Part shown: positions 18,186 to 19,620 of the stretch, in pieces
How positions within the stretch are numbered: position 1 is the stretch's first letter
Layout of the letters: every line of letters starts with the position of its first letter
Assembly (NCBI GenBank): GCA_003971905.1
Contig: RSEE01000033.1
Span: forward strand, 1 to 64,000
Reading direction: 5' to 3'
Length of the DNA: 64,000 nucleotides
Source of the DNA: Moniliella sp. 'wahieum'
Taxonomy: Eukaryota
Notes under the pieces: generated by a model
What the model was told of the DNA's origin: nothing
Seen by the model: only the letters and a program-made list of their open reading frames with translations
The model's database searches: none
Made by a program: the position numbers and the translations under genes

Positions 18186-18943
18186 CATTATGTACCCTCC
18201 TCCTCTCCAGCTGCGCCCCGCGCCTCTTTCTACCCACACCAGCCCCCCTCCAGAGCTCCATTTTTAGGTACAGTAAGAGACCCTCCCCACCGCCCACACC
18301 AACAGTGATGAGCAACAGCTACCCGCATGGTACCTCCCAACTTTGCACCCCAGCCCTGCCAAAGGATTGACCTCCCCGCCGCCACCCTACGCCCAGTGGT
18401 CCTCTTACCCACCCCCTTCACTGCGTACTAATACCGCTTGGACGTAGCGCCTGCCACGCTGAAGTTATACCGTCTCCTTCCCTGAGATCTGTGTCGTTAA
18501 TAGTGTGGCGGCGCATATCTTGCTAACCCTAGTACCATAAGCGCGTGCACGTGCATCTTAAGGTTGGCACATCACATTTGGTCTGGCCTGCAACAGCCGC
18601 CTGCTCCTTTGCCCCACCACCACCACCGCCACTACCACCACGTATGCCAAGTTGTTGTTCCGGCCAGCACTTTCAGTATGTGCGTTGGGCCGGCTGACAG
18701 TGCCTGGGCGACCAACGTGGGGCCATTTGAGGTATCGTGGGTGTACAGCCGGGCTTGATTCGCTGTAACCGGGGCTCAATCCCCTCTCCTCGGGAAAGCG
18801 GGGTGAAAGATGATATACCGAACGCTGGCTTACTCATGGGTGAACGCATGCACTGCTTGGAGTAAGTCTCCACTACTGCATCGCTTGCTCGTCATAGTCA
18901 CTGACTTTCCGATTTGATACAGGATGCGTCTTATGGGATGCAC

Positions 18944-19000
18944 CTGTCCCAATCTACTCCGTTACGAAACCACAGCCCGGGTACGGGCTTGGCGACTACG
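18944..19000 (+). pseudogene. Degenerate 28S rRNA fragment
   Basis: 49/58 positions match 28S at 4092-4149 by manual alignment; weaker similarity may extend upstream to ~18800. Confidence 0.8.
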
Positions 19001-19620
19001 CCTGAGCAAGAACGGTTGTTTGACGATGATGCGCCCTCGACAATGCGAGAGGTGCTCCCAATTTGGGCATACGGCGATGGCCTTCCAACAAGCGGCGGCC
19101 GGGGGCAAGAAGGGTTGTCTCATCCCCGACCACCGGTGGCCAGTGCCAAACCTTGATTGACGCGTCGATGTGGTCGATTGCTTGCAAGAAAGGTGTACCC
19201 CTAAGCAGGTCGAATGCGCCGCAGAGGAAGTCGGGATTGGAGCGAATTAGAACGGAAGTGGCAGCTGCAGCTTTTGATGCGACCCAGGCAAGCGCGCGTG
19301 GTTCGTCCCGAAGGAAGCGTGGTCGTGTTTACTCCCCCGCCCAATCGGAGTGGGAGTCTTTTGGCGGCGGTCAAGACGCACAGGCGCGGTCGTGGTCGTT
19401 GGGCGTCATTGGGGCCGGTACGCAGTCAACACGGAGAGCAGCGCTCAACGCTGTCTTTGCGCGCATGGCTGCTCTTGCAAAGGCCCTTGCCCCCCTTGCC
19501 TGGTGGATCTGACCAAGGGTTCATATCGGGTGAGGATGAAGGGGACGGAGCGGGAAGCGAGTGGTGAGGGTCGGAGGGCGAGCAGGCCAACTGGGGGCTG
19601 GGCCTGCTTGAGGCGCCTTT
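19001..19620 (+). mobile_element. Decayed 5' fragment of a relative of the rDNA retrotransposon
   Basis: QCERCSQFGH..GKKGCLIPDHR and QCQTLIDASMWSIA align to HCGLCSRYGH..GKLCGVCHTPGHRRDQCQELVDQSIRRMA; STRRAALNAVFARMAAL aligns to SERRAAANAAFARQATL; 3' limit uncertain. Confidence 0.75.

What the first reader, a model, noticed from the sequence alone, without database searches (positions are those of the whole stretch)
18800..19620. Decayed sister element fused to a different 28S position: sign of target switching and rRNA-derived coding sequence
Seen: a 28S-like fragment (18944-19000, 49/58 to 4092-4149) runs directly into sequence whose translation matches the knuckles and RRAA.NA.FAR block of the intact element. 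Its 5' junction is therefore ~640 bp upstream of the intact element's. ORF 18924-19160 reads through the rRNA-like part without the stops found in native rDNA (CPNLLRYETTAR). The intact element also has YETT shortly before its first knuckle. Inference: a family with at least two 28S target sites, and possibly an N-terminus exapted from rRNA. The YETT match may be coincidence.
Basis: partly seen in the sequence, partly recalled or inferred. Interest (0 to 1): 0.75.

Follow-up and report, generated by a model that had tools for sequence, protein, structure and literature searches.

The report
Dead retrotransposon stub beside fossil 28S
Just outside the last ribosomal RNA gene of the array lies the decayed front end of a distant relative of the retrotransposon that now sits in the 28S genes, still joined to 70 bases of old 28S from another position, which hints at, but does not prove, a second insertion site.

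Summary
18944-19012 is a decayed copy of this genome's own 28S (58/70 to 4092-4161; 0 of 500 shuffles reach the score). Thirteen bases later an ATG opens about 520 nt (19026-19546) that match, across frameshifts and in the same order and spacing, the two CCHC knuckles and the RRAA.NA.FAR block of the RT/restriction-like-endonuclease LINE in the unit-1 28S. Both blocks are the best matches in the roughly 50 kb scanned.

The stub is a divergent sister: 54-67% nt identity in its best blocks, against 83% for the adjoining fossil 28S. Its 5' junction (28S 4161) lies about 630 nt upstream of the resident element's (4790-4795). A 5' junction does not define a target, and the 3' end is missing.

Indirect support comes from the boundaries. 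The fossil 28S piece starts at 4090-4092, while the array's last 28S stops at 4103. That 12-nt overlap sits at the position arthropod R1 uses and brackets a 1.3-kb spacer-derived insert.

The idea of rRNA-derived coding sequence (YETT) finds no support. The start-codon context is conserved after the rRNA piece, and the resident element's leader is not 28S-like.

This is a new variant of a known kind, of moderate interest.

The parts
15320..17629 (+). Last 28S gene of the array (unit 2), cut off at the equivalent of unit-1 position 4103
   Evidence: Rfam LSU hit. blastn 13498-17629 = 1-4103 at 97.3%, with 64 gaps. No similarity beyond 17629.
17630..18943 (+). 1314-nt insert 'X' of decayed spacer DNA. 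It holds a 5S pseudogene (18053-18168) and IGS-like sequence (18323-18446). It is bracketed by a 12-nt 28S overlap (4092-4103).
   Evidence: blastn 18053-18134 = 9791-9873 at 79.5%; 18323-18446 = 10039-10160 at 70.4%. The 5S model gives 18.7 bits. No Pfam family in its ORFs.
18944..19012 (+). Fossil 28S fragment, equal to 28S 4092-4161 (RF02543 positions 2339-2408). It begins 60 nt downstream of the R2-type site.
19013..19025 (+). 13-nt leader between the fossil 28S and the ATG ATG at 19026/19029
   Evidence: Read. The context acgATG(ATG)CGC matches acgATGCGC at 4855-4863.
19026..19546 (+). Pseudogenised N-terminal coding region of the sister element. Knuckle 1 starts at 19044, and its last Cys is now Phe. 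Knuckle 2 is broken by an indel. The QCQTLID block is at 19141 and the RRAALNAVFAR block at 19423-19491.
   Evidence: Translations.
23097..23369 (+). Possible remnant of the RT N-terminal region (GVSGW..AAVKSMAT, YRL..ILLLH..SPL). It may belong to the same copy or to another decayed copy. It lies about 2.4 kb further from the N-terminal stub than in the resident element.
   Evidence: Frameshift-aware scores 75 against a next best of 53 and 66 against 50. tblastn 15/28 identical at 23186-23269. blastn 70%/74 nt to 6829-6902. Against: the family profile does not detect it, and there is no Pfam hit.
4796..8814 (+). Resident RT/RLE element used as the reference. ATG at 4858, knuckles about 4897-5000, RT 5883-7720, CCHC plus RLE 7862-8761. 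It is flanked by a 252-nt 28S duplication (4544-4795 / 8815-9065).
   Evidence: Family-profile matches with E 6e-124, 6e-57, 2e-9 and 1e-55 in four frame segments. Pfam RVT_1. Duplication 96.4%/252 nt.

Best explanation
18944-19546 is the dead 5' end of a divergent sister of the RT/restriction-like-endonuclease LINE that now occupies the 28S genes. It is still attached to the 70 nt of 28S that lay upstream of it when it inserted.

It sits in a block of fossil rDNA (5S pseudogene, spacer, 28S piece) immediately outside the truncated last 28S gene. Everything distal to 17629 has escaped the array's homogenisation and has decayed by roughly 17-20%.

Shown:
- the fragment is this lineage's own 28S;
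- the downstream 520 nt are homologous to the resident element's unusual knuckle N-terminus;
- the 5' junction is at 28S 4161, not 4790-4795.

Inferred:
- the fossil 28S piece is a short stretch of target left between two insertion junctions, because its left edge (4090-4092) overlaps by about 12 nt the point where the array's last 28S stops (4103);
- an endonuclease therefore nicked 28S at 4092/4093, and the sister probably used that site. That would give a 70-nt target duplication, as the resident element gives one of 252 nt;
- the N-terminal knuckle module, very different between the two copies, would be the part that reads the target.

The rRNA-like part is flank or leader, not coding sequence.
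For: - Homology of the 28S piece.
- Homology of the coding stub: two separate blocks, each the top scorer among 216 tile-strands, in the right order and spacing on one strand. 0 of 100 shuffles reach each score.
- The knuckle N-terminus is lineage-specific. None of 160 stored relatives and 0 of 80 related loci carry an N-terminal or upstream CX2CX4HX4C. Relatives have C2H2 fingers instead. Word-based searches found nothing for it.
- Divergence: 22/33, 23/36 and 37/69 nt identical in the best blocks, against 58/70 for the 28S piece.
- A possible RT remnant lies downstream on the same strand.
- Junction geometry: unit 2 ends at 4103, the fossil piece starts at 4092, and neither edge extends.
- The resident element is itself flanked by a long 28S duplication.
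- R1 literature (PMC2718515 passages): fixed 3' junction 60 bp downstream of the R2 site, duplications of 8-14 bp, and tandem copies separated by exactly the duplicated 28S stretch.
Against: - Only one copy exists and it has no 3' junction, so the target site is not observed.
- No RLE and no 28S continuation (4092 onward) is found downstream.
- The insert X is made of spacer and 5S sequence, not recognisable element sequence, so what put it there is unknown.
- With queries that include low-complexity tails, the protein scores are not far above the genomic background.
- The family profile does not see the RT remnant.
- The assembly carries many indel errors (64 gaps in 4159 nt between the two rDNA units, 40 of them in homopolymer context), and no reads could be obtained to check the joins.
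- 5' junctions of rDNA LINEs are known to shift by 100 bp or more without any change of target (PMC5035012 section 14).
Confidence: 0.55

Rival explanations
1. Same target as the resident element. The sister (or an old copy of the family) primed at about 4544-4566 as today. Its 5' junction then formed far upstream, or a later deletion removed 28S 4162-4795 and most of the leader.
For: - Top-strand cleavage and 5' junctions are flexible in R1 and R2. A third of full-length Drosophila R2 copies carry upstream 28S deletions, and fish R2 replaces 110-130 bp.
- The locus is riddled with deletions: the RT/RLE is missing, and the RT remnant lacks 22 aa.
Against: - It needs a shift or deletion of about 630 nt ending within 13 nt of the start codon.
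- It leaves the 12-nt coincidence at 4092-4103 unexplained.
- The N-terminal module is very divergent, which fits a different specificity.
Confidence: 0.2
2. Ectopic or chimeric copy. An element RNA carrying upstream 28S as a 5' tag (co-transcript), or a cDNA that switched template onto 28S rRNA, inserted into spacer-like DNA at the array edge. The 28S piece is then part of the inserted copy, not its target.
For: - The DNA to the left of the 28S piece is spacer/5S-like, not 28S.
- R1 transcripts with 28S tags and R1 insertions outside 28S are documented.
Against: - A 5' tag ending at 4161 still implies a source copy sitting at 4161.
- Template switching to an internal rRNA position is unusual (general knowledge).
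- The overlap with the end of the array's last 28S would be pure chance, roughly 20 in 9500 (my estimate).
Confidence: 0.12
3. No element at all: chance similarity of a GC-rich, Ala/Arg-rich stretch to a zinc-knuckle protein, next to an unrelated rDNA scrap.
For: - The single tblastn segment is only E 0.007.
- Pfam sees no domain.
- A composition-driven look-alike exists at 23633-24388.
Against: - Two independent blocks are both the best in the window, collinear, with spacing 284 against 291 nt and a shared start context.
- The architecture is otherwise unique to the resident element.
Confidence: 0.05
4. One reading: the family's N-terminus was built from rRNA sequence carried along at a target switch (YETT shared by both copies).
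For: - The frame is open through the 28S piece.
- YETT occurs in both copies.
- There is a weak 28/41 alignment of the resident leader to 28S 4130-4164 (21 of 300 shuffles as good).
Against: - Leader against 28S 4060-4260: 173 of 500 shuffles do as well.
- That 28S segment is not the leader's best match among 870 rDNA windows under three scoring schemes.
- YETT lies 4 residues before the Met in one copy and 17 in the other.
- An ATG with a conserved context follows the rRNA piece.
Confidence: 0.04

Closest known systems
R1 elements of arthropods (28S-specific LINEs)
   Same: The fossil 28S piece starts at the position of the R1 bottom-strand nick, 60 nt downstream of the R2-type site (AAGG|TAGCC at 4032|4033). 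The overlap with the array's last 28S is 12 nt, against 8-14 bp for R1 duplications. Tandem R1 copies are separated by exactly the duplicated 28S stretch (PMC2718515 passages).
   Different: R1 has an AP-type endonuclease and two ORFs. The resident relative here has a C-terminal restriction-like endonuclease and no AP-endonuclease hit. The host is not an arthropod. The exact R2 cleavage dinucleotide is recalled, not taken from a call.
R2 superclade with changed or shifted sites (R8, R9; fish R2 with a 28S-like 3' UTR)
   Same: Single-ORF RT plus CCHC/RLE LINEs living in rDNA. Lineages have moved to other rDNA sites. 5' junctions are displaced by 110-130 bp and 28S-derived sequence lies inside the element (PMC5035012 sections 3, 14, 17). 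The family profile's best solved relatives are R2 proteins (E 6e-33, against 1e-13 for L1 ORF2). R9's 126-bp duplication is recalled from memory, not seen in a call.
   Different: N-terminal CX2CX4HX4C knuckles instead of CCHH fingers and Myb. The sites are not the R2 site. A single-sequence search of the RT and RLE pieces finds no PDB relative.
Fungal and protist CRE-like RLE LINEs (MoTeR, FoTeR, Cnl1, SLACS, CRE1/2)
   Same: The RLE signature C-X2-C-X8-H-X3-C-X9-RH(E) and following acidic motifs fit the published pattern (PMC12857005 passages; read). The database relatives carry N-terminal C2H2 fingers, as reported for these elements.
   Different: Those elements target telomeres or spliced-leader genes, not 28S. 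No phylogeny with named references could be made here.
Degenerate rDNA at array boundaries
   Same: Pseudogenised 5S, spacer and 28S scraps lie just beyond the last homogenised unit. Mismatches pile up in the last 100 nt of the live 28S.
   Different: Here one scrap preserves an insertion junction of an extinct element lineage.

Membership tests
RLE-type (R2-like/CRE-like) non-LTR retrotransposon | LINE-type reverse transcriptase | tested here: inconclusive
   Resident element: met (family profile E 6e-124 and 6e-57; RVT_1 25.6 and 15.8 bits, each below the 29.6 cut-off because the domain is split by a frame change). The decayed copy has only a possible remnant at 23097-23369, which the profile does not see.
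RLE-type (R2-like/CRE-like) non-LTR retrotransposon | C-terminal CCHC motif plus PD-(D/E)xK restriction-like endonuclease | tested here: not met
   Present in the resident element (profile positions 690-957, E 1e-55). Absent from the decayed copy and from the whole of 17.6-24.6 kb. The stub is filed as a relative only through its N-terminal homology.
RLE-type (R2-like/CRE-like) non-LTR retrotransposon | Sequence-specific insertion defined by a fixed 3' junction | not testable with these tools
   The decayed copy has no 3' end. There is one resident copy in the window, no genome and no reads.
R2 clade proper | Insertion at the R2 site of 28S, with N-terminal CCHH finger(s) and Myb | tested here: not met
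   The junctions are at 4161 (stub) and 4544/4795 (resident), not 4032|4033. The N-terminus carries CX2CX4HX4C knuckles.
R1 clade | AP-type endonuclease N-terminal to the RT | tested here: not met
   No Exo_endo_phos hit in any piece of the resident element or in the stub region.
R1 clade | 3' junction 60 bp downstream of the R2 site with a duplication of about 14 bp | tested here: inconclusive
   The insert X has this geometry (4092 / 4103), but X is spacer-derived and the agent is unknown.
Retroviral-type zinc knuckle (zf-CCHC) | CX2CX4HX4C | tested here: inconclusive
   Two perfect motifs are read in the resident element. In the stub the first has Phe for the last Cys and the second is broken. 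Pfam reports no zf-CCHC at E <= 0.1.

The most novel reading that the evidence does not exclude
A non-animal (possibly fungal) lineage of restriction-like-endonuclease LINEs swapped the usual C2H2 fingers for N-terminal CCHC knuckles. It then split into at least two 28S-specific lineages. One nicked 28S at the very position used by arthropod R1 (60 nt downstream of the R2 site), which would be convergence by an unrelated endonuclease type. Both made unusually long target duplications (about 70 and 252 nt). The array edge preserves the extinct one.
Probability: 0.25. Interest if true: 0.7.

Novelty: new variant of a known kind. Interest (0 to 1): 0.45.

Why it matters
Site-specific rDNA LINEs are the model for target-primed reverse transcription and are being turned into gene-insertion tools. 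How such elements change target is known from very few cases (R8, R9, the R1-clade relatives).

A knuckle-bearing RLE lineage with two 28S sites would give a natural pair for mapping which module reads the target. If the host is a fungus, it would also extend 28S-resident LINEs beyond animals. The fungal rows I saw of Table 1 in a 2024 review (passages only) list an LTR element, Ty1 and MITEs but no 28S LINE. My searches found none.

As it stands, the evidence is a single fossil, so the value is as a lead.

Tried and rejected
- Whole genome: none is held. Earlier notes of this scan: none. Sequencing runs: none was listed, so the joins and other copies could not be checked.
- Homologues of the knuckle N-terminus (longer proteins) and of the stub ORF (similar length): none. 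The tool warns this is weak evidence.
- Rfam at E <= 1 over 4300-9400 and E <= 5 over 17630-24640: no ribozyme and no LSU hit on the 70-nt piece.
- Folding of both junction regions: z -0.33 and -2.17, nothing usable.
- First chaining script: it used a wrong frame and chained low-complexity hits, so it is discarded. The local MAFFT run timed out and was replaced.
- Extension of the 28S piece to 4182: not supported.
- Diverged 28S-like inner edge at the resident element's 5' end: not significant (154 of 300 shuffles as good). The 3' edge gives only a 13-nt extension (4 of 300).
- N-terminus-like similarity at 23633-24388: E 3e-5 and 2e-8 without composition correction, but 0.096 or absent with it. 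I treat it as compositional.
- Apparent RT-like score near 63.2 kb: not confirmed by tblastn.
- Similarity of insert X to the element, or to DNA downstream of the stub: none.
- rDNA in relatives' flanks: 0 of 20 loci by Rfam and 0 of 80 by blastn.
- Host taxonomy from the AMP-binding gene: uninformative.

Full report
**Setting.** The window is the edge of a eukaryotic rDNA array.
- Unit 1 has 18S, 5.8S and a 28S that is interrupted, followed by a linked 5S gene (9797-9915).
- Unit 2 has 18S, 5.8S and a 28S that matches unit 1 only up to 17629, equal to unit-1 position 4103.
- Ordinary genes follow from about 24.6 kb: AMP-binding enzyme, thiolase, WD40, Ras-like and DUF3533.
- The host is not identified. 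The DUF3533 protein's nearest Atlas clusters are fungal, which is only a lead.
- The two rDNA units differ by 64 gaps in 4159 nt, 40 of them in homopolymer context. The assembly therefore carries long-read indel noise. Frameshifts say little here; substitutions do.

**The resident element.** Between 28S 4790-4795 and 8815 lies a roughly 4.0-kb LINE.
- A profile built from 40 database relatives matches it in four frame segments: E 6e-124, 6e-57, 2e-9 and 1e-55, covering profile positions 70-957.
- It has an RT (Pfam RVT_1) and a C-terminal C-X2-C-X8-H-X3-C-X9-RHE restriction-like endonuclease (read; the published pattern is in PMC12857005 passages).
- The family profile's best solved relatives are R2 proteins (6e-33), ahead of L1 ORF2 (1e-13).
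- Its N-terminus, from the ATG at 4858, carries two CX2CX4HX4C knuckles. The relatives instead have C2H2 fingers. None of the 160 stored relatives and none of the 80 related metagenome loci has such a knuckle N-terminal to, or upstream of, the RT.
- None of those 80 loci contains rDNA (20 of them were also scanned with Rfam).
- The element is flanked by a 252-nt duplication of 28S (4544-4795 and 8815-9065, 96.4% identical). Its 3' junction thus lies upstream of its 5' junction in 28S coordinates.

**The observation.** It is correct.
- 18944-19012 matches 4092-4161 at 58/70, and 0 of 500 shuffles reach the score.
- The fragment shares this genome's own departures from the Rfam LSU consensus, so it is a fossil of this lineage's 28S. 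It does not extend on either side.
- Thirteen bases later comes ATG ATG CGC (19026). The resident element has acgATGCGC at 4858.
- From there the translation, read across frame changes, matches the resident N-terminus:
  - the first knuckle, whose last Cys is now Phe;
  - the second knuckle, which is broken;
  - QCQTLID against QCQELVD;
  - RRAALNAVFAR against RRAAANAAFAR, within a stretch of 14/23 identical residues.
- Frameshift-aware scores for the 75-aa knuckle query and the 36-aa RRAA query are 78 and 61. The best scores elsewhere among 216 tile-strands are 58 and 46. 0 of 100 shuffles reach either score.
- With queries that include the Ala/Arg/Pro-rich tails the margins are poor: 81 against 70, and only third place for the second query. 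A single tblastn segment has just E 0.007. The case rests on two independent top-ranking blocks in the right order with matching spacing, 284 against 291 nt.

**What the stub is.**
- Its best blocks are 54-67% identical to the resident element at the DNA level.
- The attached 28S fossil is 83% identical to live 28S, and the nearby 5S pseudogene is 79.5% identical to the live 5S.
- The stub therefore was already a distinct lineage when it inserted: a sister, not an old copy.
- Homology stops at about 19546.
- No RT or RLE is detected by the family profile. None of 120 ORFs between 17.5 and 25.3 kb has a transposon-related Pfam hit.
- One stretch, 23097-23369 on the same strand, resembles the resident RT's N-terminal region. 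Scores are 75 against a next best of 53 and 66 against 50, with 15/28 identical residues and 70% over 74 nt. The profile does not see it, and it lies 2.4 kb too far downstream. I list it as possible.

**The surroundings give the most useful clue.**
- Between the end of the live 28S (17629 = 4103) and the fossil 28S (18944 = 4092, or 4090 allowing a 1-nt indel) lie 1314 nt of decayed spacer. This includes a 5S pseudogene and IGS-like sequence, in the same order as in the live unit.
- The two 28S edges overlap by about 12 nt.
- If the truncation point were random within a roughly 9.5-kb unit, landing within 20 nt of the fossil's start would happen about twice in a thousand (my estimate).
- The overlap sits 60-71 nt downstream of the R2-type site (AAGG|TAGCC at 4032|4033; the exact cleavage position is recalled). 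That is where arthropod R1 has its fixed 3' junction and its 8-14 bp duplications. There, tandem copies are separated by exactly the duplicated 28S stretch (PMC2718515, passages only).
- The simplest reading is that 28S was nicked at 4092/4093 at least once. The 70-nt fossil would then be target sequence left between two insertion junctions. The stretch distal to 4103 then dropped out of concerted evolution.
- That would make 4092/4093 the sister's priming site and 4161 its top-strand site. This gives a 70-nt duplication, in line with the resident element's 252 nt.
- This is inference. The insert is spacer-derived, and nothing identifies the enzyme that put it there.

**Why target switching is not shown.**
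- For R1 and R2 the bottom-strand site is fixed while the top-strand site and 5' junction vary. Examples are upstream deletions in a third of full-length Drosophila R2 copies, and 110-130 bp replaced in some fish R2.
- The stub lacks its 3' end.
- Three alternatives remain open: an aberrant 5' junction, a later deletion of about 630 nt, or an ectopic copy carrying a 28S tag.
- No genome, reads or close relatives were available to decide between them.

**rRNA-derived coding sequence.**
- The ORF is indeed open through the fossil 28S, and native 28S has a TAG there. However, 36 open codons are unremarkable.
- A start codon in a conserved context follows the fossil.
- The resident leader (4796-4857) is not significantly like 28S 4060-4260: 173 of 500 shuffles do as well. 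A lenient alignment to 4130-4164 is matched by 21 of 300 shuffles. That segment is not the leader's best match among 870 windows of the rDNA unit under three scoring schemes.
- YETT is best taken as coincidence.

**Comparison with known elements.**
- Changes of rDNA target within LINE clades are known (R8, R9; the R1-clade relatives). So are 28S-derived sequences inside R2 and shifted 5' junctions (PMC5035012 sections 3, 14, 17).
- What is unusual here is the lineage itself: an RLE LINE with knuckles instead of C2H2 fingers, living in 28S with a very long duplication, in what may be a fungus.
- The fungal rows I saw of Table 1 in a 2024 review list no 28S LINE (PMC10946416, passages). My searches found none.
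- The stub adds a second, extinct lineage and a second 28S position.

**Verdict.** This is a new variant of a known kind, of moderate interest, pending other copies.

Noticed in passing
window 4544-4795 and 8815-9065: The resident element is flanked by a 252-nt direct duplication of 28S (96.4% identical). At least 5 of the 8 mismatches are packed into 9 nt next to the 3' junction (8828-8836 against 4557-4565). This is either a very long target duplication or a 28S-like 3' end carried by the element.
   Followed up: partly
window 17618-17629 and 18944-18955: A 12-nt overlap of 28S (4092-4103) brackets a 1314-nt spacer-derived insert, at the position and with the geometry of arthropod R1 insertions. 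The agent is unknown.
   Followed up: partly
window 17556-17559: Unit 2 has a 4-nt AGCC duplication a few bases from the R2-type site (AAGG|TAGCC), and two substitutions in its last 10 nt. This may be reduced homogenisation at the array edge or assembly noise.
   Followed up: no
window 1-4103 against 13498-17629: The two rDNA units differ by 64 gaps (40 in homopolymer context) and 30 substitutions. This is long-read indel noise, so the frame breaks in the 'intact' element may be artefacts.
   Followed up: yes
window 23097-23369: A possible remnant of the RT N-terminal region, similar to the resident element at both protein and DNA level but not seen by the family profile.
   Followed up: partly
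window 18975-18993 against 4123-4141: The fossil keeps the consensus-like 3' strand CTTGG of a 28S hairpin. The live 28S has CTAGG paired with CCTAG, so the live gene may have changed by a compensatory pair since the fossil was cut off.
   Followed up: no
L014 5300-5334 / 7888-7922; L017 2327-2386, 2454-2513, 4165-4224: Two related metagenome copies are flanked by the same 35-60-nt sequence (CAATTCATACCGCAGT.TATGAATTAA). This suggests site-specific insertion of relatives into another repeated target.
   Followed up: no
window 23633-24388: A GC-rich stretch with three overlapping long ORFs aligns to the resident N-terminus only when composition correction is off. It is probably the low-complexity start of the AMP-binding gene region.
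   Followed up: partly
window 40383-40472 (-): A 90-nt tRNA hit (56.5 bits), long enough to hold an intron.
   Followed up: no
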